From positions 1 through 64,000 of IMG/VR virus record IMGVR_UViG_3300037424_000564: DNA of 64,000 nucleotides, one strand, 5' to 3'. The position numbers and the translations under genes were made by a program. The DNA comes from a virus. Lineage: Duplodnaviria > Caudoviricetes. The notes under the pieces are model-generated. The model made no database searches. It was not told the origin of the DNA and was given only the letters and a program-made list of their open reading frames with translations. The stretch's first letter is position 1; every line of letters begins with the position of its first letter. Positions 47,522-61,484 of the stretch are shown one piece after another.

Positions 47522-49627
47522 TTATACCCAATCAGTCATAATACGATCCAAATCAAAAGGACTTAGATCCCCATCTTCTGCAATAACATAATCTGCATCA
47601 GATCTACGATAAACGATATCTGCACCTTGAGCAATAATATTTGAAACAAAAATATCATATAGAGAAGCAGATGTGTTTGCCATTTGTGTTGCTTTAGCAG
47701 CAGTAGCAACAGTAATTGGAAGAGTATTCTCTACACGAAATCCACTACCATCAATAGTAGTAGCTAGATCACACCAAATAATTTGATTATTTCTAATATC
47801 AACAATCAAAGGACTGGTTGAAGTAGCGTCAGCAGTTAAATCACAACGACCTTTGACAGATTTTGGTTCAAAGATTTCTCCTGAATTTACAGAAGAACGT
47901 TCCATCCATCCCATAAAACCAACTTCTAATTGATTCATTTTTTGACCAGTATAGCTATTAACATTACATACAACGTAAGCAACATTTGGATCAAGAGAGT
48001 TAAGATTTACATCAATAAATTCACTTGCACCAGTAGGAGCATCAACAATATCTCCAGAATGGTAGTAAGCATTATTACTACCACGTAGGTGTGTCCAAGA
48101 ACAATTACCTAAGTAATTCCAATCTGCGTCAAATGTAACAGCAGAAAGATCTAAATCAACTCTATTAGAGCCAATATTCTGCCAGTACATGAACAATCTA
48201 ACAGTAGGTGCAGTCAAATCAAAACGTGAACCTCGTCCAACTTGACGTAGTGCTGATGATGCACTACGATTACTAGAAGGAATTAACAGATTTTGACAGA
48301 TATCATCAATAAATACGTTTTTTCCCTTGATTTCAGTTTTGTCTTTATATTTTTCAATGATGGCATCAATAATAACTCTGACGATTCGATGCGTAATATC
48401 GTCTGTAAGTGGTTTTAAATTATTTTCAATGGTAATCACAGCATGAGATTTTTTAGGTAAAAAGATCCTATTTTTATAAGAACAAAGTTCATTACGACCA
48501 CGGAAATATCCATATAGTTGCCAAAGGACAGTTGTTGAAACTGAATTTGCAACTTTAGCAAATTCATTAATAACCTTATTAGGATTTGTTGCTTTATTAA
48601 TTAAAGCATTCAAACGTCTAGCGAAGTCACCGGGACGAGTTGCACATTTAGACAGAACTTCATCAATTAATCCAAGTTCAATGAAATATTCAATAATAGA
48701 ATTATAAGTCTTACAACCTTCATTACGAAGAGCATGAAAACAATCTACTGTTTGTGGGAATTGGGTTGAATATTCTCTTGGATGAAGCTTTTCAGCAACA
48801 CGAATCCATTTGTTGCGATGACGCATCAAATCTTCCCCAACATTGCTTGGATTCATTGATTCAAGTTTAGATAGAATCAATCTACGAAGTGAACGAGGGA
48901 TATTTTTATATTTGGTGTTTTTACCGAGAGATACATCACCACCAGACAGACTTGTAATGAAACGAAGAACATCAGTTGCAGTGGTTACTTGAGTATCCCA
49001 AACATTCATAATCATTTTGCGTTGATTTGATGTCGCTGTTTTACCATCACCAATAATACCAAATAGAGTTGCCATTCTTTCTTTATTGGTGAAGATTGCG
49101 TTACAAGAGAATCCAAATTCTACAAAGGTTTCAATATCAGAAACATCCTGAACTGAAGGAGAAGCTTTGGATTCGAGAATAGTTTTAAAACAATCAACAA
49201 TATCCTCCATAACACCTAAACCAATCCATTTTGCTTCGGTGATATCAGTGAAAGGAAAACGATATGATGTGTTATAATTTGGAATAAAGGAAGGATTGAG
49301 ATAATGACAAATAGCATTAATATAAAGTTCTTCCTCAGAAGCGGTAGCTACTTGTACAGGAAAATTACGATACATAGGACGATGATATACTATCCCATTT
49401 TGCTCTTTGATAATAGAAACAACAAAGTCATACAATGACTTTAACGTAGAAGAACTGGCAAGTTTCATTTCACCAATAAATTTTTCATCAAACACATAAC
49501 CTAGATCAGCAACATTCGCTATAATTGCACCAACCATACCGATAGGTGCTACATTTTCAGTAGACTCCGCACTGAAAACAATTTTAGATTTACGGCGAAA
49601 AATGATTGCATCGATTGAGTTAGTCAT
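47522..49627 (-). CDS. 701-aa protein with helical N-terminal region (possibly TROVE/Ro-like) and C-terminal TerD domain
   Basis: RVDLDLSAV, HSGDIVDAPTGASEFIDV TerD motifs. The TROVE assignment is inference. Confidence 0.7.
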   Translation of the reverse strand: MTNSIDAIIFRRKSKIVFSAESTENVAPIGMVGAIIANVADLGYVFDEKFIGEMKLASSSTLKSLYDFVVSIIKEQNGIVYHRPMYRNFPVQVATASEEELYINAICHYLNPSFIPNYNTSYRFPFTDITEAKWIGLGVMEDIVDCFKTILESKASPSVQDVSDIETFVEFGFSCNAIFTNKERMATLFGIIGDGKTATSNQRKMIMNVWDTQVTTATDVLRFITSLSGGDVSLGKNTKYKNIPRSLRRLILSKLESMNPSNVGEDLMRHRNKWIRVAEKLHPREYSTQFPQTVDCFHALRNEGCKTYNSIIEYFIELGLIDEVLSKCATRPGDFARRLNALINKATNPNKVINEFAKVANSVSTTVLWQLYGYFRGRNELCSYKNRIFLPKKSHAVITIENNLKPLTDDITHRIVRVIIDAIIEKYKDKTEIKGKNVFIDDICQNLLIPSSNRSASSALRQVGRGSRFDLTAPTVRLFMYWQNIGSNRVDLDLSAVTFDADWNYLGNCSWTHLRGSNNAYYHSGDIVDAPTGASEFIDVNLNSLDPNVAYVVCNVNSYTGQKMNQLEVGFMGWMERSSVNSGEIFEPKSVKGRCDLTADATSTSPLIVDIRNNQIIWCDLATTIDGSGFRVENTLPITVATAAKATQMANTSASLYDIFVSNIIAQGADIVYRRSDADYVIAEDGDLSPFDLDRIMTDWV

Positions 49628-49656
49628 TAGTTTATTCCTTAATTAGTTAGTTAGTA

Positions 49657-49755
49657 TGTGGTGATTGTCAGGCGAACCGTACAGGGTGAAACTCCAATGA
49701 TAGAATATAGAAGGATGCCCTTGGTAAAACCCCTGTAACAGTTAACATAGCCACA
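49657..49755 (-). ncRNA. GCATCCTTCTA-motif structured RNA, copy A
   Basis: Outer stem TGTGG/CCACA; begins about 5 nt downstream of the -10 box of a promoter at 49761..49789. Confidence 0.7.
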
Positions 49756-49785
49756 TTCTTAATATAGAACAGTTTTGAAAATTTG

Positions 49786-50277
49786 TCAAATCCAAATATC
49801 TTTAAGATCGATTCCTAGAGTTCTCATTTTGAAAAACATGTATTCAGAGAAGTTAGGGTGAGTTGCTGGTTTGATCAAAGTCATATTTGTCTGATGAAGC
49901 AATTTATCATCCTTCCAATTATTGCAGGTTTTACAAGCAGTTACACAGTTAAGGTAAGAACTTTTGCCACCTTTTGAAACAGGAAGAACGTGGTCAATGG
50001 TGCAAGTTTTTGGAGTTAGAACTTTACCACAGTATTGACAAGTATGGTTATCTCTAACCAAAACAGTTTTCTTTGAGAATGGAATTTTTTTATTCAAAGA
50101 TTGTTTGACTGCTTTAAGTAAGCGAATAACCTTTGGTAGATACATACCACCATGAATCAATCTATCAGTATTTTTAACAACTTCTACTCGATTTTTCACG
50201 ACTAGTTTAATTGCTTTTTTGATAGATACAACATTCAAAAATTGGTAATCATGAGTTAGAAGAAGTACGGTTGCCAT
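49786..50277 (-). CDS. HNH endonuclease (McrA-like)
   Basis: RDNHTCQYCG, TIDHVLPVSKGG, VTACKTCNNWK. Confidence 0.92.
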   Translation of the reverse strand: MATVLLLTHDYQFLNVVSIKKAIKLVVKNRVEVVKNTDRLIHGGMYLPKVIRLLKAVKQSLNKKIPFSKKTVLVRDNHTCQYCGKVLTPKTCTIDHVLPVSKGGKSSYLNCVTACKTCNNWKDDKLLHQTNMTLIKPATHPNFSEYMFFKMRTLGIDLKDIWI

Positions 50278-50298
50278 GATAGATTTTCCTTAATTAGT

Positions 50299-50366
50299 TT
50301 GCGGTGATTAATAGGCTGATTTAGTTTAATAATATTAAGTAGAAGGATGCCTTAATATAGCCGCAA
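50299..50366 (-). ncRNA. GCATCCTTCTA-motif structured RNA, copy B
   Basis: Outer stem TTGCGG/CCGCAA; inner 8-bp hairpin presenting an 11-nt conserved loop. Confidence 0.7.
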
Positions 50367-50374
50367 TGTCTTCT

Positions 50375-50683
50375 CTATTTAACAATACTCAATGGATTTG
50401 GTTTTACTGTTCCTTTAATGACAATACCTGTAGTTGATTCGATATATGCATTTTCTAATTCTTTAGGGCAAGGCATTTTACGAATGATATGTTTAATATC
50501 AATATCGCAACCAACAGTTTCAAATGGATACATATACGGAACTAATTCAATTCCAACTCGACCTTCATGTGAAGGAGCAAAATTAACCATAAAAACATTT
50601 TCGAGGTATTCAGGATTCGTATCATATGTACGACCAATAACAATTTCTCCTGTACAAAGTTTTACAACTACAATTTCATTCAT
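50375..50683 (-). CDS. T4-like hypothetical protein (Sm-like fold candidate)
   Basis: VVKLCTGEIVIG N-terminus; C-terminal LENAYIESTTGI. Confidence 0.65.
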   Translation of the reverse strand: MNEIVVVKLCTGEIVIGRTYDTNPEYLENVFMVNFAPSHEGRVGIELVPYMYPFETVGCDIDIKHIIRKMPCPKELENAYIESTTGIVIKGTVKPNPLSIVK

Positions 50684-50703
50684 TATATTTTCCTTTGTTT
50701 GTG

Positions 50704-51258: not shown

Positions 51259-51322
51259 AAAAATCTCCTATAAATGTTTCTTATAGTTATTTATAAAAAG
51301 CCCATCAGTTTATTCGGACTTG

Positions 51323-51407
51323 AGCCGGAAGAGGGATTCGAACCCCCGATGTAGTTTCCATACCTGATTACAAGTCAGGTGCAATCGACCAACTATGCGA
51401 TTCCGGC
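51323..51407 (-). tRNA. tRNA-Thr(UGU) with 15-nt variable region
   Basis: GCCGGAA/TTCCGGC acceptor, CCTGA-CTTGTAA-TCAGG anticodon arm, TTCGAAT T-loop, U73. Confidence 0.85.
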
Positions 51408-51975
51408 ATTTTAAGGATTTGAACAAATATGTTGTTCTCTCATTGATTCTGTATCTAATATATTAGACCTCGTAGAATTCCTTTTACAACAGCAACGAGT
51501 TTTATTTAAATAATTTATCCCATTCATCTACTATTTTTTGCATTTTTTCTTCCTGATAATCCCAAAAACCAATAAATTCAGCTTCTTCAAATAATCGATT
51601 ACCTTCTGTCATAAATGGTTCTTCTGCATATAAAATCTTACATGGATCGACACTACATCCTTTATTAAGGACAAGGATATCACCCTCACTAAAAAAATCT
51701 TTCCAACAATTAATAGCGCACTCAATTACTTGTGATTCTGAATCAAATCGTTCAGTTTCATCACCCTCACGATAAAAACCACGCTCTTTAAACTTGTTTA
51801 ATTTTGCAGCACTTTCTTTATCTAGAACACGATTTAATGTAATCTTTTCAAGATCATTGTTAGAAAATAGTTGCAAATATCCATAATAATGAATAGCACC
51901 GGGACAAATACCAGCATAGCTTGAAGTTTCTAAACTAACTATTTTTGATGACATTTCGATAGTCCTTTAACTTAG

Positions 51976-52052
51976 CGGGGATAGTAGGAGTTGAACCTAC
52001 ATGTGTCCAATTACACTTTCAAGTGGGTAGAAGCCACAGGTGATATATCCCC
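51976..52052 (-). tRNA. Rearranged (D-arm-less, D-loop-displaced) tRNA-Arg(UCU)-like RNA
   Basis: GGGGATA/TATCCCC; GTGG-CTTCTAC-CCAC; T-arm GTAGG-TTCAACT-CCTAC; G73; 77 nt. Confidence 0.75.
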
Positions 52053-52067
52053 AAATTATTAATTTTT

Positions 52068-52152
52068 TGGTAGGGAAGGAGGGGATCGAACCCTCACCCA
52101 ATTAAGGACAGGATTTTGAGTCCTGCGCGTCTGCCAGTTCCGCCACTTCCCC
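52068..52152 (-). tRNA. tRNA-Leu(CAA)
   Basis: Type II cloverleaf with encoded CCA. Confidence 0.95.
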
Positions 52153-52199
52153 ATGAAAACTGGTCTTTTTAAGGTATGACCAAACCTATCAAGGCTGTG

Positions 52200-52343
52200 T
52201 TAGCCTTGACCAACACTTAGTTTCTTGCCACGTTTTTTATCTCTTTTCTTACGAATTTTAGTATTGGTTGATTTACCAATAGAAGTAACTTTAGTTGATT
52301 TCCGTTTGACTTGCTTAGTCGCATCTGATGCTTTAACTGCCAT
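52200..52343 (-). CDS. 47-aa basic protein ending in GQG (not in the ORF track)
   Basis: MAVKASDATKQVKRKSTKVTSIGKSTNTKIRKKRDKKRGKKLSVGQG; AAGGAG RBS. Confidence 0.6.
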   Translation of the reverse strand: MAVKASDATKQVKRKSTKVTSIGKSTNTKIRKKRDKKRGKKLSVGQG

Positions 52344-52383
52344 TGTATAACTCCTTTGGTTGTTTGTCAATTTAATTAAAAAT

Positions 52384-52477
52384 TGGTACTCCGTGAGGGA
52401 CTTGAACCCCCATCATGCGATAATCTGTCGCCAAGCCTGTGTATAAAACAGGTGCTTTGCCATTAAGCTAACGGAGC
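52384..52477 (-). tRNA. tRNA-Ile(UAU) with 24-nt variable arm
   Basis: CCTGT-TTTATAC-ACAGG; variable-arm stem GCGA/TCGC; CCA. Confidence 0.85.
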
Positions 52478-52485
52478 ATGATCTT

Positions 52486-52570
52486 TGGTAGGGAAGGAGG
52501 GACTCGAACCCTCAAGCAATTAAGCGACGGATTTTAAGTCCGTTGTGAATACCAATTCCACCACAACCCC
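52486..52570 (-). tRNA. tRNA-Leu(UAA)
   Basis: Type II; acceptor stem has two U.U mismatches; CCA. Confidence 0.88.
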
Positions 52571-52576
52571 ATGTTA

Positions 52577-52903
52577 TTACCTTGAATGTGGTGGATGCAG
52601 ACCAGTAGCAGATCGTGCCAGATCAACTAGATCTTTTGCTTCCTTAAGTCTAAAAGAAAAATTTGAACTAAGTTCTTTGATACAAGGAATCGGCGCATTC
52701 CCTTCTTTCAGAAGACGAACAGCAAGAACATAAGCTTCTTGATCTTCGCTTTTAACACCATCAGGAAGACGATATTCGGATACTTGTGAATCAGCGAAAT
52801 ATGCACAGAAACATGCCGGATCTTCTTTAGCGAGACGAATAGCAATTTTCTTGTAATCAACTGCAACATCACCAGTAAGGATATCGATAGCTTTTTTGTA
52901 CAT
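52577..52903 (-). CDS. Protein with ribosomal L7/L12 C-terminal-like motif
   Basis: IPCIKELSSNFSFRLKEAKDLVD. Confidence 0.65.
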   Translation of the reverse strand: MYKKAIDILTGDVAVDYKKIAIRLAKEDPACFCAYFADSQVSEYRLPDGVKSEDQEAYVLAVRLLKEGNAPIPCIKELSSNFSFRLKEAKDLVDLARSATGLHPPHSR

Positions 52904-52970
52904 TATGAACCTCCGTTAGTTAGTTATAAGACATTGTAAACTAAGTTTACTTTTTTGTCAATTTAATTTG

Positions 52971-53043
52971 TGCGGAATGTAGGGATCGAACCTACTTATC
53001 AAGATCTTCAATCTCGCGCATTGACCACAATTGCTTATTCCGC
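52971..53043 (-). tRNA. tRNA-Phe(GAA)
   Basis: CGAGA-TTGAAGA-TCTTG; cloverleaf. Confidence 0.9.
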
Positions 53044-53231
53044 AGATATTAACCTTCTACCATATAGATGAAATGTTTGATTGAGTTACAACGTTCACAC
53101 ATACCACGTTTAGCATAACCAATATTCATCATTGTTTCTAATTCTTTATGACATTCTAAACACAACCAAGTACCAGTATGAATTGTCGGATTCTTTACAG
53201 TATCTAGCATTTTTAGTTCCTTAGTTAAATT

Positions 53232-53315
53232 TGGCAGACGCAGGGGGAGTCGAACCCACAACACAAGTTTTGGAGACTTGCCTAACTCGCCCGGTTAGAT
53301 GAAGTTCCTGCATCT
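53232..53315 (-). tRNA. tRNA-Trp(CCA) with 10-nt acceptor-to-D-stem linker
   Basis: AGATGCA/TGCGTCT, CAAGT-CTCCAAA-ACTTG, G73, CCA. Confidence 0.8.
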
Positions 53316-53320
53316 ATTTT

Positions 53321-53391
53321 TGGTAGTTTACCTTGGAATTGAACCAAGCTATATTTCGATATGAGCGAAACATGATCCCAGATCGTAAACC
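53321..53391 (-). tRNA. tRNA(CAU) (Met or Ile2) with minimal D-arm
   Basis: TTTCG-CTCATAT-CGAAA; D region only GATC-TGG-GATC; CCA. Confidence 0.75.
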
Positions 53392-53401
53392 GTGATACTT
53401 C

Positions 53402-53573
53402 GGGCCAGTAGAAGGATTCGAACCTCCAAAGATCATTAGAATACAACCGCCAGATACGTCTATCTACTTTATGCATTCCCGATCCAACTGTAGCCTTTCA
53501 TATACTTTCAGTCATGACTCCTGCCATATATGAACACTTTCTGTCTGCGTCTTCCAATTCCGCCATACTCGCC
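53402..53573 (-). ncRNA. 172-nt tRNA-like RNA with anticodon arm replaced by a roughly 115-nt structured domain
   Basis: GGCGAGTA/TACTGGCC ends, Leu-type D-arm GCG-GAATTGGAAGA-CGC, T-arm GGAGG-TTCGAAT-CCTTC. Confidence 0.75.
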
Positions 53574-53583
53574 ATGTTTGTAT

Positions 53584-53829
53584 TTAAATAATTCTACTAT
53601 ACTTTTTTATTCTTGTCAATATTTCTTTGCAACAAATTTGATTATCGTCAAAAGATGATTCTATCCTAATTAAGATTCTTTCGTATGTCCAACCAACTGA
53701 AATTCCGGTCAAATAAAATTCATACCAATCAATAACCATATCATTATTATAAATTGAATTCACTATTAAGTCAAGTGGTATTCCTAACGAATCCGACATT
53801 TTAAAAGCATCAAACCCAGAAATAACCAT
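53584..53829 (-). CDS. Small protein resembling an alanyl-tRNA synthetase internal segment
   Basis: ISGFDAFKMSDSLGIPLDL resembles the AlaRS motif SGxDAFKLYDTYGFPLDL. Confidence 0.55.
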   Translation of the reverse strand: MVISGFDAFKMSDSLGIPLDLIVNSIYNNDMVIDWYEFYLTGISVGWTYERILIRIESSFDDNQICCKEILTRIKKYSRII

Positions 53830-53928
53830 TTTATCTTCAGTAGTTATTCCTACAGATCTTAAACCGTAACATTTTTTCCATTTGCGTTTAGCTGTTTCAT
53901 TTGTACCTCGCCTATTCTATTAAATATT

Positions 53929-54002
53929 TGGAGCTAACATTCGGAATCAAACCGAAATCCAGACTGTACCAGAGTCTTATTCTATCATTGAACTATGCCA
54001 GC
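53929..54002 (-). tRNA. tRNA-Thr(GGU)
   Basis: AGACT-CTGGTAC-AGTCT; U73; CCA. Confidence 0.9.
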
Positions 54003-54006
54003 ATTG

Positions 54007-54736: not shown

Positions 54737-54748
54737 TAAACCTCCTAG

Positions 54749-54821: not shown

Positions 54822-55063
54822 ACAACTGTAGTAAATAGTCTCAGGTCGCTACATCGTCTCATACATATTAGTTAATTTAAATTTCATGCCTGAAAGATAA
54901 TTAGAAAAAAATAAGTGCGTACTTTAATGCCCCTCAATGAACTATAATTAGTATCTCATTCTCCGTGATCAGTTAGAGCGATACCTGTTAATTCAGGTCA
55001 ACTGGTGCGCTGTCTTGTATATATGATAAATCATATCACATCTTTAGCGTTTGAGATTATAAG

Positions 55064-55196
55064 AGCCGATAGTCGGAGTCGAACCAACGCTTGTCTTATC
55101 AATGATTTCTTAGATTTAACTAGTCATCTAAAAGCTATCTAAAGACATTATAACAGGATTTTGCAGTCCCTGCTCTAGCCACTGAGCTATACCGGC
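55064..55196 (-). tRNA. tRNA-Cys(GCA) with roughly 65-nt variable-region insertion
   Basis: GCCGGTA/TATCGGC, GCTC/GAGC D-stem, CTGCAAA loop with an extra A, U73. Confidence 0.8.
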
Positions 55197-55204
55197 AATA
55201 TTTT

Positions 55205-55323
55205 TAGCTTTTGATTGTAATCGAACCAATCTATACAAAACCTCAAGGTGACTAGTCTTGATTCAAGCCTTTAGTTGTCAACTACCTGCATTTAGTTTTG
55301 TATAAAATCCATCTTTAAAAGCT
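55205..55323 (-). ncRNA. 119-nt tRNA-like RNA with long stem and branched apical domain
   Basis: AGCTTTT/AAAAGCT, TATACAAAAC/GTTTTGTATA, T-arm GATTG-GTTCGATTA-CAATC. Confidence 0.65.
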
Positions 55324-55325
55324 TG

Positions 55326-55401
55326 AGCAGAATGGGAGAATCGAACTCCTAATTGTCAGCTTGGAAGGCTGATGTTGCTACCTTACAACTTATCATTCTG
55401 C
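55326..55401 (-). tRNA. tRNA-Gly(UCC)
   Basis: TCAGC-CTTCCAA-GCTGA; U73. Confidence 0.9.
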
Positions 55402-55581
55402 ATTGCGGTAGATATGTCAGGTCTACCTTCCTTATTCCAGAGTCGCGTCATGGAAAACCAGAGGACTATTTAAGTTTTCGTATCCTTTAAGACCAGTTGC
55501 CAATTCTGGTCAGGATACTTATTTACCTTAGACGAAAGGTGGTTAATAGTCAAACCTTTAACATAAAATCATTTATTATAA

Positions 55582-55668
55582 TGGTGGGTGTGGAGGGATT
55601 CGAACCCACGCTGGCGTAAACGCCTCCTGATTAAAAGTCAGGTATATTACCACTATATTTACACACCC
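55582..55668 (-). tRNA. tRNA-Lys(UUU) with 16-nt variable arm
   Basis: CCTGA-CTTTTAA-TCAGG; variable-arm GGCG-TTTA-CGCC; CCA. Confidence 0.88.
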
Positions 55669-55677
55669 CAAAAAGGG

Positions 55678-55750
55678 TGGATGCGGTGAGGTTCGAACTC
55701 ACGGCGTATCGGTTAAAAGCCGATTACTCTACCAACTGAGTTACGCATCC
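55678..55750 (-). tRNA. tRNA-Lys(UUU), canonical
   Basis: ATCGG-CTTTTAA-CCGAT. Confidence 0.95.
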
Positions 55751-55760
55751 ATAATATTAA

Positions 55761-55835
55761 GTCATTTTCGTGACTACATACTATGAATGCATGTAGTCAC
55801 GAAAATGACTACATACTATGAATGCATGTAGTCAC
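55761..55835. repeat. 19-bp-stem inverted repeat with a 35-nt-period tandem duplication
   Basis: TGACTACATACTATGAATGCATGTAGTCAC at 55771..55800 and 55806..55835. Confidence 0.85.
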
Positions 55836-56038
55836 TATTGTTTATATTTTTTCATAATTTCATCATATTCCTTTTCTTCTTTGCTTTTAATTGAAAGGTT
55901 AGCTGCATTATCTAAGGTACAAGCAACAATAACAACCAACGTTGCCTCCCATGAAATAAAAAACCCAATGATAAGACAAATAATACCAATAAACCATAGA
56001 ATGCTACTTTTAATCATTTCAGTATCCTTTTTATTGTT

Positions 56039-56112
56039 TGGTAGCTCCTGCCGGTTACGATCCGACTGCTTCATCTTATCAGGATGATGTGTTACCATTA
56101 TACCAAGGAGCT
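56039..56112 (-). tRNA. tRNA-Ile(GAU)
   Basis: TCATC-CTGATAA-GATGA; CCA. Confidence 0.9.
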
Positions 56113-56145
56113 ATGTTTTATATAAGACACTTTAACATCTTTATT

Positions 56146-56499
56146 CTAGTCTGTCAATTTATAAATCATGACATAAACTTTTAAACCTTTTTTAGTTGCA
56201 TAATCAATCATACCTTTTGTCCCGGCAGACTTTCCGTCCCAAATAGCAATGAGCGCATCTGCATAGTCTACCATTTCTCTATTTCGGATATGACCAGCGG
56301 CTTTACCTTTACCATCCCAATCAGGAATAAAAAACTTTATAGAAATATGATTCTTTTCTGCAAACTCTTTACCTAGTCTATCTACCCCTCTAGCACCACC
56401 ACAAACAACTTCAGTTATAACAAATCTAGCTTCTTTAACAGCTTTGAGTATTAGATTATAGTCCGTTATATCTCTACTACCTGCGATGATTACTTTCAT
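56146..56499 (-). CDS. SLOG-superfamily protein (DUF2493/YspA-like)
   Basis: VIIAGSRD, CGGARGVD, AGHIRNREM, WDGKSAGT. Confidence 0.88.
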   Translation of the reverse strand: MKVIIAGSRDITDYNLILKAVKEARFVITEVVCGGARGVDRLGKEFAEKNHISIKFFIPDWDGKGKAAGHIRNREMVDYADALIAIWDGKSAGTKGMIDYATKKGLKVYVMIYKLTD

Positions 56500-57044
56500 T
56501 CTTTTCCTTTGAGATTACCTCTTCAAAAAACCCATGACAAGTTTGATTATTTCTCAAATGAGGAACAGGAAATCTCATTTTATCATTATTTTTCGTATTG
56601 AAGTTTCTTCTTAATTTAATTACAGTTCCGCATATTTTACAAATATATATCATCTTAGCATCATCTTATATACCTTTGATATATAATCTTCCATTCCTAA
56701 ATCTTTTAAAACAATACCTTCATTGATATATCGTTCAACTAATTCTGCTTCTATAGGATACCATTTACCTTGTTTGATATACCATCGTGTTCTACCTGAT
56801 GGATAAGTTCTACATTCTACCTTTTCAAGATACGAATTAATCGTGACATATTTTTCTATTTGAGTCATGGTGTCCTTTCGGGATCGAACCGTTGCAATTA
56901 TATTATTATAGCTATACACCCCGTATTAGCATTAAATATAATCTCTTGTCCATCATCTACTCTACCATTACTTAACATGTATTTCATGATATTTCAACTT
57001 TGCCCAAGTATCACATAGGAGTTGAACCTATGAGGGACATAATA

Positions 57045-57121
57045 TGGTGGGGCTTATCAGACGCTACCCTGATCCTTGTCCCTGATGTACGGTCAGGTTG
57101 TGCTACTTACACCATCACCCC
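57045..57121 (-). pseudogene. Degenerate tRNA-like sequence (GUA in loop) with CCA end
   Basis: CCTGA-CCGTACA-TCAGG; poorly paired acceptor; non-canonical T-loop. Confidence 0.5.
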
Positions 57122-57136
57122 ATATTTGTTATATTG

Positions 57137-57212
57137 AGATTGCAAAGGGAGTCGAACCCTTTATTCGAAGTTTTGCAGACTAAGCCCATTACCACAATGA
57201 GGAAATGCAATC
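57137..57212 (-). tRNA. tRNA-Cys(GCA)
   Basis: CTGCAAA loop, U73; weak anticodon stem. Confidence 0.8.
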
Positions 57213-57235
57213 ATTTTTTTGTTCTAGATATTTTG

Positions 57236-57763
57236 TTATCTCTGAGAGGACCAGTCAGATGAACCACTGTCGATACAGACTAATGTATTGCAATAGTGTT
57301 CTTCTACATGACATCTACAACATAATGGAACACAATTTTGAATCTCTTTTAATATTCTATCCCAAGACCATCCTCTTAGGTTTTTAAATTTACTGTCTTT
57401 CTTTGTTGGGTCTACATGATGTAAATCAATAGCTCCATAATACTTATCATACCCACATTTAATACATTTTCCACCTAAATATTCAATAGCTTTTTTACGT
57501 TTTTCATTACCAACTTTTATTGTATATTTGTTGTGACATTTCGAACAAAATGATCGTTTTTTCCCATAAAATTTATCTGGATTTGTTTCACCACAAATGC
57601 ATTTATGTGTTATATTTCTAGGTGAAATTTCTATCTGTTTAGTATTATGTTCCCCATAAGGAGAGCATTCCAAACAATATTTTCTTGTATTAATTATTTT
57701 AATCTTCCCATCAATATTAACTCTATTTGGGAATTCTTTATTACATTTAGTACAGATTGGCAT
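57236..57763 (-). mobile_element. HNH homing endonuclease within the tRNA array
   Basis: CIKCGY..DLHHVDP..CVPLCCRCH; TATAAATA at 57793..57800. Confidence 0.85.
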
Positions 57764-57843
57764 AACAGCATCCTTTGTAAGATAGATACTATTATTTATA
57801 AAAAATTTATCTTACATTCTCATAATATTATCCTTAGTTGAAT

Positions 57844-57918
57844 TGGCGGGGGATGAAAGAATCGAACTTTCGTCTTCTGGGTCAAAGCCAGATATGTTAC
57901 CACTACAATACAATCCCC
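57844..57918 (-). tRNA. tRNA-Gln(UUG)
   Basis: TCTGG-CTTTGAC-CCAGA; CCA. Confidence 0.92.
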
Positions 57919-57920
57919 TA

Positions 57921-57995
57921 TGGTCGGTGAGGCAGGGATCGAACCTGCATGATCTACGCCCCAAACGTAGTGGTCAGCCATTGACCCACTCACCG
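57921..57995 (-). tRNA. tRNA-Pro(UGG)
   Basis: C1-G72; CTACG-TTTGGGG-CGTAG; CCA. Confidence 0.92.
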
Positions 57996-58021
57996 AATTA
58001 CTAATTAACTTTACCATATTG

Positions 58022-58094
58022 TCGCGGAAGCAGGATTCGAACCTGCGACCTCTTGGTTATGAGCCAAGCAAGATAGCCTCTTCTCTATTCCGCA
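58022..58094 (-). tRNA. tRNA-Met(CAU), elongator-like
   Basis: CTTGG-CTCATAA-CCAAG; lacks the initiator GGG/CCC pairs. Confidence 0.88.
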
Positions 58095-58255
58095 ATAATT
58101 TTAAATAATTCTTTATTGAGTCTATCTTTTTGAACCCTTCGTACACTTCTTGAAATTAATTTTCTTTCTTTCCCATGATAGACATTACAACAGTAACATT
58201 TAAGTCCACCAATTCCACAACGAGAATTCATTTCTTGCCTAAAAATATCAGACAT
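58085..58255 (-). CDS. 56-aa Cys-containing basic protein (not in the ORF track)
   Basis: MSDIFRQEMNSRCGIGGLKCYCC...; AGGAG RBS. Confidence 0.6.
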   Translation of the reverse strand: MSDIFRQEMNSRCGIGGLKCYCCNVYHGKERKLISRSVRRVQKDRLNKELFKIIAE

Positions 58256-58269
58256 TATAATCTCCTATT

Positions 58270-58347
58270 TGGCACTCCTGATCGGGATCGAACCGACAAT
58301 TTTTGCCTTGAAAGGGCAACGACTTTAACCAATTTGTCTACAGGAGC
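58270..58347 (-). tRNA. tRNA-Glu(UUC), copy 1
   Basis: TTGCC-CTTTCAA-GGCAA; CCA. Confidence 0.93.
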
Positions 58348-58388
58348 ATGTTTAGGGATAGAATAATTGAGGGATTGAACCTCATATT

Positions 58389-58466
58389 TGGCACTCCTGA
58401 TCGGGATCGAACCGACAATTTTTGCCTTGAAAGGGCAACGACTTTAACCAATTTGTCTACAGGAGC
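58389..58466 (-). tRNA. tRNA-Glu(UUC), copy 2 (exact 119-bp tandem duplication)
   Basis: Identical to copy 1 at offset 119. Confidence 0.93.
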
Positions 58467-58476
58467 ATGTTTAGGG

Positions 58477-58622
58477 ATAGAATAATTGAGGGATTGAACC
58501 TCATATTTCGAACCATCAATATAAAGACCCATTTTCTTTATACACAAAGGGAATCGAACCCTTACTTGATACGACCAGTATTTAATAGGAATTGAACCTA
58601 ACTACTCACCAAGTTATTCTAT
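58477..58622 (-). ncRNA. Candidate multi-T-loop RNA
   Basis: ATAGAATAA/TTATTCTAT closing stem with three T-arm-like hairpins. Confidence 0.6.
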
Positions 58623-58623
58623 G

Positions 58624-58696
58624 CGCCCTAGACGGGGATCGAACCCGCTACTTTCTGCTCGACAGGCAGACTCCACTACCAAATGGACTCTAAGGC
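58624..58696 (-). tRNA. tRNA-Asp(GUC)
   Basis: TCTGC-CTGTCGA-GCAGA; G73. Confidence 0.92.
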
Positions 58697-58709
58697 ATTA
58701 TTAAATTAT

Positions 58710-58799
58710 TGGCTCCAGTGACAGGCTTCGAACCTGTAAGTTCCTTGCGAGAACGCTTGATTAACAGTCAAGTGGGTTTGCCAATTCTCCTACACTGGA
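58710..58799 (-). tRNA. tRNA-Asn(GUU) with 18-nt variable arm
   Basis: CTTGA-CTGTTAA-TCAAG; variable-arm GTTC/GAAC; G73; CCA. Confidence 0.88.
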
Positions 58800-58812
58800 A
58801 TGATATTAATTT

Positions 58813-58887
58813 TGGCTCCGAGAGCAGGGATCGAACCTGCGACAGGGTGGGTAACAGCCACCTACTCTACCACTGAGTTACCTCGGA
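58813..58887 (-). tRNA. tRNA-Asn(GUU), canonical
   Basis: GGTGG-CTGTTAC-CCACC; CCA. Confidence 0.93.
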
Positions 58888-59037
58888 ATGTTATGCTACC
58901 GATTTACATTAGGCTGATAAAGTGAAATAATCATTTCCTAACTATCTTGTAGCGATGGAAATTCTATCACAATGAATAAGCAGTCTCACATGGAGTTAAA
59001 GTATTCAATTGTGACTTAAGATTGTAGCCGTATTCTT

Positions 59038-59106
59038 TGGTGGAGCGACTAGGACTTGAACCTAGAATTGATGGGTTACAGCCATGCGTGATACCAATTT
59101 CACTCC
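59038..59106 (-). tRNA. Short tRNA-Tyr(GUA) lacking the 5' D-stem strand and variable arm (possible pseudogene)
   Basis: GGAGTGA/TCGCTCC, ATGG-CTGTAAC-CCAT, CCA; 69 nt. Confidence 0.6.
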
Positions 59107-59112
59107 AAAATT

Positions 59113-59194
59113 TGGTGGGTATGGTAGGACTCGAACCTACATGCTTTCGCTACGGTGTTACAGACCGCTGGACCACCAATTGTCCAACATACCC
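59113..59194 (-). tRNA. tRNA-Tyr(GUA), canonical type II
   Basis: GCGGT-CTGTAAC-ACCGT; CCA. Confidence 0.93.
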
Positions 59195-59651
59195 AAAGTA
59201 TGGAGACTAGTTATCGGACTAATCTTTATCCACATTTACTGATCCGATTCAGACTTAAGTTTATATTATTGTTAGACTACACACAGATCATTGTCCAGAG
59301 TTAATAGGCTCCTTCCTCCCTGATATCATCTTCAAATATAATTCAAAAGATTTAAGTTTTCGGGCATACCCAAGGTACTTATTACCTTAAAACTGAAGTA
59401 TAGCAAATAGGTAAATCTAAAATCTAACAACAATGGCTTTGACAGGGAGTTAGTTCCCTCCGGTAGGTATCATGTTGCAAATCATCGAATAGCCACTATT
59501 CATCGAATGATATTGAGAGTTTATTATTGGGATTGGGAAACTCTCTCTTTTACGCAACTGCTTAATAAGCATGGACCCAATTTTGATGTAAGATATTTTA
59601 ATATCTCTTGGAGGGCTTTTCATCCTCGTCGTTATCTTACATCTTGTAATA

Positions 59652-60397
59652 AGATTACTACTTAATCATTTGGTTGTCAATTTAAATCTTCAAGTTTTCA
59701 GGCATACCCAAGGGACTTGATACCTTGTATCTGAGAATTGAGAATTTTGATTTCAGGTGGTTATTCCAAGGACGTCTCCATTCTAATTAGCATTAGAACT
59801 TCACAGACTCACCACTATCCTATACATCCATCAAAACTTATCACTTTTGAAATTATAAACCGTGTCGTAATCTTTTCAGACCCAACAACCATACCTCAAT
59901 AAATAATGGCTGGCTTATAATTCTAGTCAAGCTACTCAATTTTTTCAAATAACTCGTTCAACATTGAAATAATCTTACTACTTAACCATTTGATTGTCAA
60001 TTTAATTCCAAAATAAATTAATTAAGTTAGAGTTCACATCACACACCTTCCTTTCACAAAAGTAGGAGTTATTGATTTTTGATTTTCTCTATCGTAACAT
60101 GATGATTTTACTTTGTCAATTTATTTGTATAAACAGATAGTCATTGATTGCATTTAAACTAAACTCTGCAAAGTTAGATCGCACCTACCTATCGTCAAGC
60201 CTTATTGTCGCCCCCTCTGGTTATCGTCAGGCTCTATTGTCGTATACATCTATCCACTTCTATTGAGTGGGTTTTATTTCTGATTGCAGTCAGAAGGCAC
60301 TTCAATCAATGACTTTCTGTTTATACAAATAAATTGTCTTGTCAAATAACTCGTTCAACATTGAAATAATCTTACTACTTAACCATTTGATTGTCAA
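59652..60397 (-). promoter_or_regulatory. Four tandem sigma70-like promoters (59652..59680, 59972..60000, 60091..60119, 60369..60397)
   Basis: Each is TTGACA-N17-TA(A/C)(T/G)(C/A)T; no ORF of 60 aa or more follows any of them in the ORF track. Confidence 0.8.
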
Positions 60398-60402
60398 TTT
60401 AA
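59945..60402. repeat. 61-bp exact direct repeat (59945..60005 = 60342..60402) containing a promoter and transcript start
   Basis: Base-by-base match at offset 397. Confidence 0.92.
60117..60336. repeat. 34-bp inverted repeat (1 mismatch) enclosing 152 nt with two 21-nt direct repeats
   Basis: 60117..60150 versus 60303..60336; inner repeats at 60190..60210 and 60222..60242. Confidence 0.92.
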
Positions 60403-60413
60403 ATTTTGATATG

Positions 60414-60490
60414 CGCCCCGAGTAGGACTTGAACCTACATGTATCCAATTAACCTTTCAATCGGTTCGTAGCCGAAGGGTATACCGAGAC
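60414..60490 (-). tRNA. Rearranged (D-arm-less, D-loop-displaced) tRNA-Arg(ACG)-like RNA
   Basis: GTCTCGG/TCGGGGC; TCGG-CTACGAA-CCGA; T-arm GTAGG-TTCAAGT-CCTAC; G73; 77 nt. Confidence 0.78.
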
Positions 60491-60504
60491 AATAAACTAG
60501 TTTG

Positions 60505-60590
60505 CAGCGAGTGAAGGCATCGAACCATTGACGCTATTAACGTCACCACTGTTTTCAAGACAGCTTGGGGAGCCAACCCCGGCACTCGCC
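60505..60590 (-). tRNA. tRNA-Ser(UGA)
   Basis: CTGT-CTTGAAA-ACAG; long variable arm; G73; weak T-stem. Confidence 0.85.
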
Positions 60591-60737
60591 ATTGATTAAA
60601 CTTTACTACATCTTTATTCAGTTGTCAAATTAAATATAGTAATTTCAACCCTAGAAGGACTTTCGTTAAACACTGCTAAAGCATTTTAAGTGTTAGTTGA
60701 AATCTTTACTGTCCATTAACTATATTATTGCTGTTTG

Positions 60738-60808
60738 TAGCTCTTAACAGAATCGAACTGTTGTTTATGGTATGTAAAACCACCACTCTACCATTGAGTT
60801 AAAGAGCT
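60738..60808 (-). tRNA. tRNA-Val(UAC)
   Basis: GTGGT-TTTACAT-ACCAT. Confidence 0.9.
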
Positions 60809-60818
60809 ATATTACTTG

Positions 60819-60888
60819 TGGAGATAGGCGGAATCGAACCCCCTGCTGAGATTTGCAAGACCTCTGCCCTTTACCAAAACATACCCCC
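60819..60888 (-). tRNA. tRNA-Ala(UGC) with reduced D-arm
   Basis: G3.U70 identity pair; CTTGCAA loop. Confidence 0.8.
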
Positions 60889-60894
60889 AAAACT

Positions 60895-60925
60895 AAAAAA
60901 CCCTTGTCACATAAGCAACAAGGGT
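60895..60925 (-). terminator. Terminator between the leader ORF and the tRNA array
   Basis: ACCCTTGT..ACAAGGGT followed by TTTTT. Confidence 0.8.
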
Positions 60926-60952
60926 GATAAATCTAACTATCCCTGTTACCGT

Positions 60953-61069
60953 TTACATTGTATCCCCACCAAATGCCCAAATAAGATATGAGCGCACATC
61001 AGCTTTAAAGGATGCAGTCATAGCACTCTCTAAATTGACTTTATTAATTGTGGGTTGATTTATATTCAT
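60953..61069 (-). CDS. 38-aa putative leader peptide
   Basis: MNINQPTINKVNLESAMTASFKADVRSYLIWAFGGDTM; downstream of TATAAATA at 61100..61107. Confidence 0.45.
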   Translation of the reverse strand: MNINQPTINKVNLESAMTASFKADVRSYLIWAFGGDTM

Positions 61070-61177
61070 ATATATTTTTCCGTGTAAATTGGTTATCTTT
61101 ATTTATAAAAGATAAATTTTATCTATTCATGAAATAGCGTAACTAGTTGAAATAGTTATTTAAATTATTGATTTTTT

Positions 61178-61384
61178 CTATTCATTATAATCGATGCAAT
61201 ATAACTCACCAGTACCATGTAAATATTTTTGTAATGCTACAATTAACCCAAAACTTTCATTTTCTAGCTCACCATATATAACAGAACAATTTATTTCAGC
61301 CATAACTTTGTTGCATCGTTCATGTAACTTTAATGCTTCTTTTTGTCGTTCTTCTGGTTTGTTAGTTAAATAGTTGAATTCCAT
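61178..61384 (-). CDS. Hypothetical protein downstream of RNA motif copy C
   Basis: AAGGAT RBS. Confidence 0.7.
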   Translation of the reverse strand: MEFNYLTNKPEERQKEALKLHERCNKVMAEINCSVIYGELENESFGLIVALQKYLHGTGELYCIDYNE

Positions 61385-61401
61385 ATTATCCTTAATTAAG
61401 A

Positions 61402-61484
61402 CTAGTGGAGATTAGCAGGCTTATATCAATTAACAGTTGAGTCCCCGAAGGGAGTAGAAGGATGCCTCTTACTATAGCCACTAG
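61402..61484 (-). ncRNA. GCATCCTTCTA-motif structured RNA, copy C
   Basis: Outer stem CTAGTGG/CCACTAG; promoter TTGACA-N17-TACAAT at 61494..61522. Confidence 0.7.

What the first reader, a model, noticed from the sequence alone, without database searches (positions are those of the whole stretch)
47522..61484. Three-copy structured RNA motif linked to a TerD (possibly TROVE/Ro-like) protein and an HNH nuclease
Seen: copies A (49657..49755), B (50299..50366) and C (61402..61484) share GG-CTAT..RG-GCATCCTTCTA..GCCT-N3-AATC(A/T)-CC. Their outer stems differ in sequence but pair (TGTGG/CCACA, TTGCGG/CCGCAA, CTAGTGG/CCACTAG). In B and C the 11-nt core is a hairpin loop on different stems (ATATTAAG/CTTAATAT and GAG/CTC). 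A and C start right after perfect TTGACA-N17 promoters. All three are followed by TAATTAAGGA, the RBS of the next gene, and the loop's TCCTT is complementary to that AAGGA. The downstream genes are the 701-aa TerD protein, the HNH protein and a 68-aa ORF. Inference: either a cis-acting translational switch that sequesters the RBS, or a Y-RNA-like ligand of the 701-aa protein if its helical N-terminus is a TROVE ring. That would make a phage RNA-repair or RNA-surveillance module beside the tRNA array. TROVE-TerD fusions in RNA-repair neighbourhoods are recalled from the literature, not verified here.
Basis: partly seen in the sequence, partly recalled or inferred. Interest (0 to 1): 0.8.

Follow-up and report, generated by a model that had tools for sequence, protein, structure and literature searches.

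The report
Phage small RNAs paired with TerD protein
The three repeats are real members of a widespread structured small-RNA family, absent from Rfam, that almost always sits beside one uncharacterised 700-residue protein in phages and bacteria, which suggests an undescribed RNA-protein particle resembling Ro60 with its Y RNAs.

Summary
All three copies are real, and they are the only three in the 205-kb phage genome. They are not a private repeat of this phage. Covariance models built from them find several hundred same-strand copies, often in tandem arrays. These flank homologues of the 701-aa gene in about 77 of 80 viral loci and 78 of 80 bacterial loci. Eighty unrelated viral loci gave 2 chance-level hits.

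Both main helices covary strongly: 94.5% of cells are paired, against 40-54% in slid controls. The invariant single-stranded blocks are GGCUAU, C-WUCCUUCU-A and U-Y-U-CC. The apical hairpin P3 is variable and often looks like a tRNA anticodon arm or T arm. In copy C it carries CUGUUAA, the anticodon-loop sequence expected for tRNA-Asn(GUU).

Rfam 15 has no match. The protein has a clear TerD fold (Z 16-17). Its helical N-terminal part has Ro60 as its three closest solved structures (Z 7-8), but there is no TROVE sequence signal.

The best reading is RNA partners of this protein, on the plan of Ro60/Y RNA. RBS sequestration is not supported as the family's function, although here every copy lies 7-15 nt before an RBS. 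No binding or expression data exist. This scan has already reported the same pairing on other genomes.

The parts
49656..49756 (-). RNA copy A, the long variant. P1 is 49756-49751 with 49661-49656. GGCUAU is 49752-49747. P2a is GUUA 49746-49743 with UGAC 49670-49667. P2b is GGC 49719-49717 with GCC 49673-49671. The core AUCCUUCUA is 49716-49708. Extra helix X is UACAGGG 49737-49731 with CCCUGUA 49686-49680. X crosses P2b, so the two form either a pseudoknot or alternative folds. AAUCA is 49666-49662.
   Evidence: Sequence. The model matches it only partly because of the insert. Helix X is complementary with different sequences in the orthologous first copies of L019, L020 and L140.
49761..49789 (-). 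Sigma-70-like promoter TTGACA-17-TATATT. The predicted transcript start falls at the first bases of P1 of copy A.
   Evidence: 11 of 12, the best site in the region. This is a consensus match only; it was not tested.
47522..49627 (-). Gene for the 701-aa protein. It has a helical-repeat N-terminal part (about residues 1-450) whose closest solved structures are Ro60, and a C-terminal TerD-fold domain (about residues 460-645).
47454..47496 (.). Inverted repeat AAAAAGTCCCAAAG / CTTTGGGACTTTTT with T or A runs on both sides. It is a likely bidirectional terminator that closes the promoter-A-gene unit.
   Evidence: Read directly from the sequence. The scan tool does not list it because the loop is 15 nt.
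50299..50366 (-). RNA copy B, the short canonical form. P1 is 50366-50361 with 50304-50299. The core GGCAUCCUUCUA is 50351-50340. P2 is AGGC 50352-50349 with GCCU 50316-50313. It lies between the 102-aa ORF and the HNH gene.
   Evidence: Best-scoring match of both models: 78.2 and 66.4 bits. The orthologous copy lies upstream of the HNH gene in L019 and L020.
49786..50277 (-). 163-aa HNH endonuclease gene lying between copies B and A.
   Evidence: Pfam HNH and HNH_5. It is 91% identical in L019, where the neighbouring 701-aa protein is only 68% identical. It is found near the protein gene in only 5 loci.
61402..61484 (-). RNA copy C. P1 is 61484-61478 with 61408-61402. The core is 61466-61455. 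P2 is AGGC 61467-61464 with GCCU 61420-61417. P3 has two hairpins: UCCC-UUCG-GGGA (61453-61442) and UCAA-CUGUUAA-UUGA (61440-61426). The second is an anticodon-arm look-alike with a GUU (Asn) loop.
61494..61522 (-). Sigma-70-like promoter TTGACA-17-TACAAT (TG-extended) just upstream of copy C.
   Evidence: 11 of 12. This is a consensus match only.
61178..61384 (-). 68-aa ORF of no known family. Its AAGGA lies 8 nt after copy C.
51322..60888 (-). Array of 24 tRNA genes on the same strand, bracketed by copies B and A on one side and copy C on the other (context).

Best explanation
Copies A, B and C are genes for small structured RNAs of a large family that is absent from Rfam 15. That family is the dedicated genomic companion, and most likely the physical RNA partner, of the roughly 700-aa protein encoded at 47522-49627. 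The protein combines a Ro60-shaped helical part with a TerD domain.

Each RNA has an invariant 'handle'. The 5' and 3' ends pair as P1, which closes on G-G/C-C. Next comes an internal loop, CUAU opposite (A)AUYN. Then comes helix P2, ending in a C-G pair. After it lies an unpaired WUCCUUCUA stretch. I infer that this handle is the protein-binding platform, as the conserved stem is for Ro60 on Y RNAs.

The apical element P3 is free to vary. In many members it imitates a tRNA anticodon arm or T arm. In copy C it imitates the anticodon loop of tRNA-Asn. I infer that this module brings in, or decoys, a tRNA-directed enzyme or a damaged tRNA.

In this phage the RNAs are made from early-type promoters as the 5' parts of mRNAs. 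Copy A is made with the protein's own mRNA. They would then be cut out, or be bound in place.

Shown here: the family, its structure, and its linkage to the protein gene. Inferred: binding, processing, and the tRNA-related function.
For: 1. Linkage. Model R1, built from 9 copies, finds 251 matches (E<=1) in 86 protein-anchored sources; 250 are on the gene strand, and the one opposite-strand match overlaps a stronger same-strand match. They lie upstream and downstream of the gene, often as arrays of 3-4. Model R2 finds 145 matches (E<=0.1) in 78 of 80 bacterial loci spanning Bacillota, Bacteroidota, Acidobacteriota, Armatimonadota, Planctomycetota, Cyanobacteria and Saccharibacteria. R2 also rescues the viral loci that were weak with R1. 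Cultured phages XacN1, Weasels2 and LpeD carry the pair too.

2. Control. Eighty unrelated viral loci (647 kb) gave 2 matches at E 0.15 and 0.93.

3. Structure. On 150 distinct copies, 94.5% of cells are paired and 787 cells changed on both sides. Slid controls give 40-54% and no shuffle reaches the observed value. G-U pairs are frequent (for example 42 U-G at one pair), which fits RNA of this strand.

4. Invariant unpaired blocks: GGCUAU 94-99%, UCCUUCU at least 99%, U..CC 97-99%.

5. These are not tRNAs, and no Rfam family matches.

6. The P3 regions are enriched in anticodon-like 7-nt loops (50 of 223, against 14.8 +/- 3.4 when shuffled) and in T-loops (10, against 0.1).

7. Protein. The TerD fold scores Z 16-17. 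The N-terminal domain's three best matches among 48,161 PDB representatives are the three Ro60 structures: Z 8.2, 8.0 and 6.9, with 223-276 residues aligned, against about 95 for the next hits.

8. The unit promoter, copy A, gene, terminator-like hairpin forms a compact operon. Bacterial Y RNAs are likewise co-transcribed with rsr and then processed (PMC4201824).
Against: There is no direct evidence of binding, of a discrete RNA species, or even of expression. No RNA-seq run is listed for this virus.

The Ro60 resemblance is weak. Z is about 8, and the tool's own guidance says helical repeats can reach 13 by chance. There is no TROVE sequence signal. The profile search against PDB sequences finds only TerD. 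Ro60 is absent from the top 30 AlphaFold Swiss-Prot matches.

The handle lacks the Ro-binding motif of Y RNAs (GNCGAAN0-1G or GGUCCGA).

In this phage all three copies are mRNA leaders ending 7-15 nt before an RBS, and the core is complementary to AAGGA, so a cis role here is possible.

The alignments used for pair counts were fitted to the model, which leans towards the structure.
Confidence: 0.6

Rival explanations
1. The elements are cis-acting leaders, either a translational operator or a riboswitch. The element controls the gene that follows it, for instance by pairing its UCCUU with the AAGGA of the RBS. The state would be set by a ligand, or by the 701-aa protein binding its own leader (autoregulation).
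For: In this window all three copies end 7-15 nt before an AAGGA and a start codon. UCCUU is complementary to AAGGA. A and C begin at predicted transcript starts. Highly conserved junction nucleotides with covarying stems and a variable peripheral hairpin are typical of riboswitch aptamers. Autoregulation by the partner protein would be compatible with the best explanation.
Against: A third of the copies lie downstream of the gene. Most upstream copies sit in tandem arrays about 10 nt apart with no ORF or RBS after them. No conserved expression platform follows P1. MFE folds leave the SD free. The three downstream genes here are unrelated (TerD protein, HNH, 68-aa ORF). The TAAGGA RBS is generic in this genome. 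P3 modules that copy tRNA arms have no place in an aptamer.
Confidence: 0.17
2. The RNAs are free-standing tRNA-mimic decoys or sponges, for example against host anticodon nucleases or tRNA-modifying defences. They act without the 701-aa protein. The gene linkage would reflect only co-regulation within tRNA and RNA-metabolism islands.
For: Anticodon-arm and T-arm look-alikes occur in P3. The copies sit at the edges of tRNA arrays here and in other phages, with tmRNA nearby in two loci. The phage carries Rnl1 and two Rnl2-type RNA ligases elsewhere in its genome.
Against: Linkage to the protein gene holds in bacterial chromosomes that have no tRNA array at the locus, at distances of 0-30 nt on the same strand. 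Only about a fifth of copies have a tRNA-like P3, whereas the handle is invariant in all of them. This points to a common reader of the handle.
Confidence: 0.15
3. The repeats are DNA-level or mobile regulatory cassettes, like the promoter-early stem-loop (PeSL) cassettes of T4-type phages. On this view they are promoter plus stem-loop units that drive gene shuffling, or the footprint of HNH homing.
For: The phage is T4-like: gp23 and a gp44-type clamp loader occur in relatives' loci. A and C combine an early-type promoter with a stem. The HNH gene between B and A is 91% identical to that of L019, although the flanking genes are only 68-70% identical, which hints at mobility. PeSL is recalled from the literature and was not checked here.
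Against: There is strict strand specificity. Compensatory changes include many G-U pairs. Conservation reaches into distant bacterial phyla next to one protein family. None of this is expected of a recombination cassette.
Confidence: 0.04

Closest known systems
Ro60 (Rsr) with Y RNAs (YrlA/YrlB of Salmonella and Mycobacterium, Yrn1/2 of Deinococcus, phage versions; PMC4201824; Thermus phage phiLo Ro60, PMC12135203)
   Same: One or several small RNAs are encoded right beside the gene of a large helical-repeat protein, on the same strand, and are often co-transcribed with it. The 5' and 3' ends pair in a stem that carries a conserved recognition block near the 5' end. The distal part is variable and can mimic tRNA elements. 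The system occurs in bacteria and in large phages, near tRNA and RNA-repair genes. Ro60 chains are the closest solved structures to the N-terminal part.
   Different: There is no TROVE sequence match. A TerD beta-sandwich stands where Ro60 has its vWA domain. The handle is GGCUAU...WUCCUUCUA...UYUCC, not GNCGAAN0-1G or GGUCCGA. Rfam Y_RNA and YrlA models do not match. Copy number is often much higher, with arrays of up to 4 on each side. The mimicked part is usually an anticodon arm rather than the T and D arms.
TerD-family proteins (tellurite-resistance TerD/TerE/TerZ, SCP2; PDB 3ibz, 2kxt, 2qz7)
   Same: Residues of about 460-645 adopt the TerD beta-sandwich: Z 13.5-16.7, 154-167 residues aligned at 2.7-3.3 A. 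There is a weak Pfam TerD hit and a partly kept GD...G..E calcium-site motif.
   Different: Classical TerD proteins are stand-alone, about 190 aa, and belong to ter stress operons. Here the domain is the tail of a 700-aa helical protein and is linked to RNAs, not to ter genes.
NCBIfam NF041916, MXAN_6230/SCO0854 family RING domain-containing protein
   Same: It is the nearest curated protein family: E 1e-113, 381 bits, over residues 306-682.
   Different: The score is below the equivalog cut-off of 600 bits. The family model is 842 positions long with an N-terminal RING domain that the phage protein lacks. No function is known for it, and no paper in the searchable library mentions it.
SD-sequestering leaders and riboswitches (for example the pseudoknotted preQ1-II and SAM-II classes; recalled, not tested)
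   Same: It is a conserved pyrimidine stretch complementary to the SD, placed in a 5' leader a few nucleotides upstream of the RBS in this phage.
   Different: Across the family, most copies have no RBS after them and many are downstream of genes. There is no conserved expression platform and no Rfam riboswitch match.

Membership tests
Y RNA (Rfam Y_RNA / bacterial YrlA) | Matches the curated covariance models | tested here: not met
   There is no Rfam 15 match at gathering score. Nothing relevant appears at E<=10 on the three copies or on bacterial and phage relatives.
Y RNA (Rfam Y_RNA / bacterial YrlA) | Ro-binding motif GNCGAAN0-1G (bacteria) or GGUCCGA (animals) near the 5' end of the stem (PMC4201824) | tested here: not met
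   The conserved 5' block is GGCUAU (94-99% of 150 copies). Neither Ro motif is present in A, B or C.
Y RNA (Rfam Y_RNA / bacterial YrlA) | Stem formed by the 5' and 3' ends, plus internal loops | tested here: met
   P1 and P2 covary: 94.5% paired, 787 double changes.
Y RNA (Rfam Y_RNA / bacterial YrlA) | Encoded next to a Ro60 (TROVE) orthologue | tested here: not met
   The neighbour is a TerD-tailed protein with no Pfam TROVE match. The genome has no TROVE hit at all.
Y RNA (Rfam Y_RNA / bacterial YrlA) | tRNA-like domain (T and D arms) in at least one RNA per genome | tested here: inconclusive
   Copy C has an anticodon-arm look-alike (UCAA-CUGUUAA-UUGA). T-arm look-alikes occur in other genomes' copies (L179, L207, L212). 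No T/D-arm pair occurs in this window.
Y RNA (Rfam Y_RNA / bacterial YrlA) | Bound by Ro60 in vivo | not testable with these tools
   This needs immunoprecipitation or CLIP.
Ro60 / TROVE protein | TROVE domain recognisable by sequence (Pfam PF05731) | tested here: not met
   There is no hit at E<=10 for the protein, for 30 family members, or for the genome. The profile search against PDB sequences finds only TerD.
Ro60 / TROVE protein | HEAT-like helical ring fold | tested here: inconclusive
   Ro60 chains from Thermus phage, Deinococcus and Xenopus are ranks 1-3 of 48,161 representatives: Z 8.2, 8.0 and 6.9; 240, 223 and 276 residues aligned; rmsd 3.8-6.1 A. On the full model Z is 7.0-7.7. 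These Z values are within the range that helical repeats can reach by chance. Ro60 is absent from the top 30 AlphaFold Swiss-Prot matches.
Ro60 / TROVE protein | C-terminal vWA domain with a MIDAS site | tested here: not met
   The C-terminal domain is a TerD beta-sandwich (Z 16-17).
TerD domain family | TerD beta-sandwich fold | tested here: met
   Matches are 3ibz, 2qng, 2qz7, 2kxt and 9a6r_B at Z 13.5-16.7. Foldseek E is about 1e-5.
TerD domain family | Pfam TerD above the gathering score | tested here: not met
   The score is 18.7 bits against a cut-off of 25.3. Some homologues do carry a precomputed PF02342 hit.
tRNA | Cloverleaf recognised by ARAGORN or the Rfam tRNA model | tested here: not met
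   None of the three copies, and none of the array copies inspected, is called a tRNA, whereas neighbouring true tRNAs are.

The most novel reading that the evidence does not exclude
The phage assembles a Ro-like particle from the TerD-tailed protein and a set of exchangeable guide or decoy RNAs. The apical modules of these RNAs copy specific tRNA anticodon arms, here tRNA-Asn. The particle would capture or neutralise host tRNA-cleaving defence nucleases, or hand nicked tRNAs to the phage's RNA ligases. That would protect the translation capacity the phage brings in with its own 24-tRNA array.
Probability: 0.2. Interest if true: 0.92.

Novelty: new variant of a known kind. Interest (0 to 1): 0.8.

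Why it matters
If the pairing is physical, this is a second, widespread family of Ro/Y-type ribonucleoproteins. It would have its own RNA handle and a TerD domain in place of vWA, and it is present in many bacterial phyla and in large phages, yet absent from Rfam and from the literature I could search.

It gives the orphan family of roughly 700-aa 'cytoplasmic protein / SCP2-like' proteins a testable partner. It explains unannotated gaps beside tRNA arrays in phage genomes. It also offers cultured systems for experiments: Xanthomonas phage XacN1, Lactobacillus phage LpeD, Rhodococcus phage Weasels2, and strains of Niallia, Brevibacillus and Paenibacillus.

The tRNA-arm mimicry links it to the open question of how phages and hosts fight over tRNA integrity.

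Tried and rejected
- Rfam. A gathering-score scan of the window and E<=10 scans of the three regions gave only tRNAs and noise. The same held for 18 related loci and a Bacillus locus.
- Exact-pattern scans of IMG/VR. GGCTAT..GGCATCCTTCTA and GCATCCTTCT..GC..A.TC.CC returned almost only chance matches in coding DNA. They were later used as a negative control set.
- A megablast of the region against GenBank phages found nothing. A single-protein locus search in IMG/VR found no relative; the alignment-based search then worked.
- RNA evidence. No RNA holder was listed for this DNA. There were only two sediment-metagenome DNA runs, one of which may be the source sample.
- TROVE by sequence. Pfam on the protein, on 30 N-terminal domains and on the genome gave nothing. 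The profile search against PDB sequences found only TerD. The AlphaFold Swiss-Prot fold search listed generic helical-repeat RNA binders (PUF, PPR, Nop9, FASTK) and not Ro60.
- The tRNA or pseudo-tRNA reading was rejected by ARAGORN and Rfam.
- Further copies in the genome. There are only weak, chance-level matches at 144903-144971 and 170268-170312.
- Literature. Searches combining Y RNA, Ro60, TROVE, TerD, RtcB, SCO0854 and MXAN_6230 found no description of this pairing. Burroughs and Aravind 2016 and Sim et al. 2020 are not held, so prior mention there cannot be excluded. Iyer et al. 2021 mention a ROT/TROVE protein in some jumbo phages without detail.
- Complex prediction was not used, because it cannot take RNA.

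Full report
**Setting.** The window is the first 64 kb of a 205,056-bp IMG/VR virus record. Relatives' loci carry gp23, T4-type prohead protease and gp44-type clamp-loader genes, so the phage is T4-like. All genes and RNAs discussed lie on the minus strand. A 24-tRNA array (51322-60888) lies between copies B and A on one side and copy C on the other.

**Observation.** The 12-mer GGCATCCTTCTA occurs exactly three times in the window and in the whole genome, against 0.14 expected. Read on the minus strand, the copies are A (49756-49656), B (50366-50299) and C (61484-61402).
- Each has a different but complementary outer stem P1 that closes on GG/CC.
- The shared blocks are GGCUAU, GGCAUCCUUCUA, GCC(U) and AAUC(A/U)CC.
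- A and C start at the predicted transcript start of the best sigma-70-like sites of their regions, each 11 of 12.
- B follows the stop codon of a 102-aa ORF.
- All three end 7-15 nt before AAGGA and a start codon. TAAGGA-type ribosome-binding sites are generic in this genome, with 140 sites.

Rfam 15 has no family for these elements.

**Relatives of the protein carry the same RNA.** The 701-aa protein has hundreds of homologues of 690-720 aa. The closest contigs were L019 (68% identity), L020 (52%), L140 (53%) and L142 (48%).
- They carry the same motif with different stem sequences upstream of the homologous gene, in 2-3 tandem copies.
- In L019 and L020 a copy also sits upstream of the syntenic HNH gene.

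**Family-wide linkage.** I built covariance model R1 from nine short copies.
- It was run on 80 IMG/VR loci that were picked only because they encode a relative of the protein (30-48% identity), plus the loci above.
- It gave 251 matches at E<=1. One was on the opposite strand, overlapping a stronger same-strand match at the same place; the other 250 were on the gene strand. They cluster just upstream and just downstream of the gene, often as arrays of 3-4 units about 10 nt apart.
- 68 of the 80 loci had a match at E<=0.01.
- Model R2, rebuilt from 150 matches, rescued nearly all the rest. Of the 15 weakest loci, only L145, L239 and L259 stayed empty, and L259 has no upstream flank.
- As a control, 80 unrelated viral loci (647 kb) gave 2 matches, at E 0.15 and 0.93. 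These loci had even been pre-selected to contain part of the core pattern.
- In one representative genome per bacterial species, 266 stretches encode a relative of the protein.
- In the 80 best of those, R2 finds 145 matches (E<=0.1) in 78 loci. All but one weak match are on the gene strand, at 0-300 nt from the gene. The taxa include Niallia, Heyndrickxia, Bacillus, Brevibacillus, Paenibacillus, Clostridia, Lachnospiraceae, Saccharibacteria, Bacteroidota, Pyrinomonadaceae, Armatimonadota, Planctomycetota and a cyanobacterium.
- Cultured phages XacN1 (3 copies upstream), Weasels2 (3 downstream) and LpeD (1 upstream) carry the pair in unannotated gaps.
- None of these copies is a tRNA or matches Rfam.

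**Structure.** On 150 distinct copies from phages and bacteria, the 13 modelled pairs are standard in 94.5% of cells, and 787 cells changed on both sides.
- Sliding the 3' partner by 1-3 columns gives 40-54% paired and 130-206 such cells. No shuffle reaches the observed covariation score (an earlier set is; RNAalifold extends P2 to about 7 bp).
- The alignment was fitted to the model, which favours the structure, but the margin is large. The many G-U pairs are what RNA of this strand would give.
- The invariant unpaired positions are GGCUAU (94-99%), the C closing P2 (97%), W-UCCUUCU (at least 99%) followed by A (72%), the G opening P2's 3' strand (97%), and U-Y-U-CC (77-99%).
- Copy A is a long variant. 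P2 is split into GUUA/UGAC and GGC/GCC by an insert. Part of that insert (UACAGGG) pairs with CCCUGUA, which lies 3' of P3. This helix X has completely different but complementary sequences, 8-12 bp long, in the orthologous first copies of L019, L020 and L140. X crosses GGC/GCC, so the fold is either a pseudoknot or an alternative to P2b.

**The variable apex.** The P3 regions differ widely.
- Among 223 distinct P3 regions, 50 contain a hairpin of at least 4 bp whose 7-nt loop fits the anticodon-loop pattern N-U-NNN-R-N. Mononucleotide shuffles give 14.8 +/- 3.4.
- Ten contain a T-loop (UUCRANY), against 0.1 in shuffles.
- This is a crude control, and the sequences are related to one another.
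- The commonest loops are CUUUUAA, CUUGAAA, UUUGGGA, CUGAAAA, CUGUUAA and CUGCAAA. From general knowledge of tRNA, these are the loop sequences of tRNA-Lys, Ser, Pro, Phe, Asn and Cys.
- Copy C has UCAA-CUGUUAA-UUGA, the Asn type. For comparison, the phage's own tRNA-Asn has the loop CUGUUAC.
- Copies A and B have no obvious tRNA-like apex.

**The protein.** AlphaFold2 with 25 homologues gives pLDDT 83 and pTM 0.79.
- Residues of about 460-645 form a TerD sandwich: Z 13.5-16.7, Foldseek E about 1e-5.
- For the N-terminal 452 residues folded alone (pLDDT 85), an exhaustive comparison with 48,161 PDB representatives ranks the three Ro60 structures first. These are Thermus phage phiLo (Z 8.2, 240 residues aligned), Deinococcus Rsr (Z 8.0, 223) and Xenopus Ro (Z 6.9, 276). 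The following hits align about 95 residues.
- These Z values are modest for helical repeats. No TROVE sequence signal exists, and the Swiss-Prot AlphaFold search lists other helical RNA binders instead. I therefore call the part 'Ro60-shaped', with kinship unproven.
- The nearest curated families are NCBIfam NF041916 (RING_SCO0854, below its cut-off) and phrog_33734 (unknown function).

**Mechanism.** The data show an RNA family and a protein family that travel together at almost every locus, on one strand, across phages and distant phyla. The simplest account is a ribonucleoprotein.
- The invariant handle would be read by the protein.
- The free apex would carry a module that, in a sizeable minority of copies, imitates a tRNA arm.
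- This is the plan of Ro60 with Y RNAs. Those RNAs are likewise encoded beside rsr, co-transcribed, processed and partly tRNA-like (PMC4201824).
- Membership in the Y RNA and Ro60 families fails on the tested defining features: the covariance models, the Ro-binding motif, the TROVE HMM and the vWA domain. So this works like that system, not as a member of it.

The RBS-sequestering reading explains this window's geometry but not the family. Of 147 copies, 51 are downstream of the gene, only about 20 lie within 30 nt of its start, and the SD stays unpaired in MFE folds. Binding of the protein to leader-embedded copies could still feed back on translation here.

The HNH gene between B and A is probably a mobile insertion. 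It is 91% identical to that of L019, against 68% for the neighbouring gene, and it is present in only 5 of about 165 loci.

The phage has Rnl1 and two Rnl2-type ligases elsewhere and no RtcB. An RNA-repair link is possible but unshown.

**Novelty.** I found no description in Rfam or in the searchable literature. Two relevant reviews were not held. Earlier agents of this same scan reported the same protein-RNA pairing on other genomes. My tests here were independent of those notes and agree with them.

Noticed in passing
L268:831-1264: A GOLLD RNA (Rfam RF02032, 171.6 bits) lies directly upstream of the motif array (1337-1908) and the TerD-tailed protein gene in a Saprospiraceae MAG contig.
   Followed up: no
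L171:3634-3767 (also L152:4253-4320, L179:4537-4635, L207:3743-3830, L212:396-483): Some family members carry a full T-arm, or an acceptor/T-arm minihelix (for example ACAGGTTCGAGTCCTGT followed by CTTCCCCA), in the P3 position. This amounts to a tRNA fragment grafted into the handle.
   Followed up: partly
window 49786-50277 (-): The 163-aa HNH protein is 91% identical to its counterpart in L019, while the flanking 701-aa and 102-aa proteins are 68-70% identical. This suggests recent transfer (homing-like behaviour). By NCBIfam its HNH core resembles those of IscB and Cas9d.
   Followed up: partly
window 61524-61967 (-): A DUF3850/ASCH protein (PUA-like; 'RNA-binding protein' in PHROGs) is encoded immediately upstream of the promoter of copy C.
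   Followed up: no
window 58273-58347 and 58392-58466 (-); 55064-55196 (-): Two tRNA-Glu genes give identical Rfam matches 119 nt apart. A 133-nt Rfam tRNA match at 55064-55196 is not called by ARAGORN, so it may be a tRNA with an insertion or intron.
   Followed up: no
L177:370-681 and L211:4059-4418: Phage-encoded tmRNA genes sit within about 1 kb of the motif arrays and the protein gene in two unrelated viral contigs.
   Followed up: no
L312 (Lactobacillus phage LpeD) 5111-5449: A PemK-type mRNA interferase gene lies about 650 nt downstream of the LpeD homologue of the protein.
   Followed up: no
window 47454-47496: A 14-bp inverted repeat with A and T runs on both sides sits between the 701-aa gene and the next promoter (47450-47422). 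It is a likely bidirectional terminator that the scan tool missed because of its 15-nt loop.
   Followed up: no
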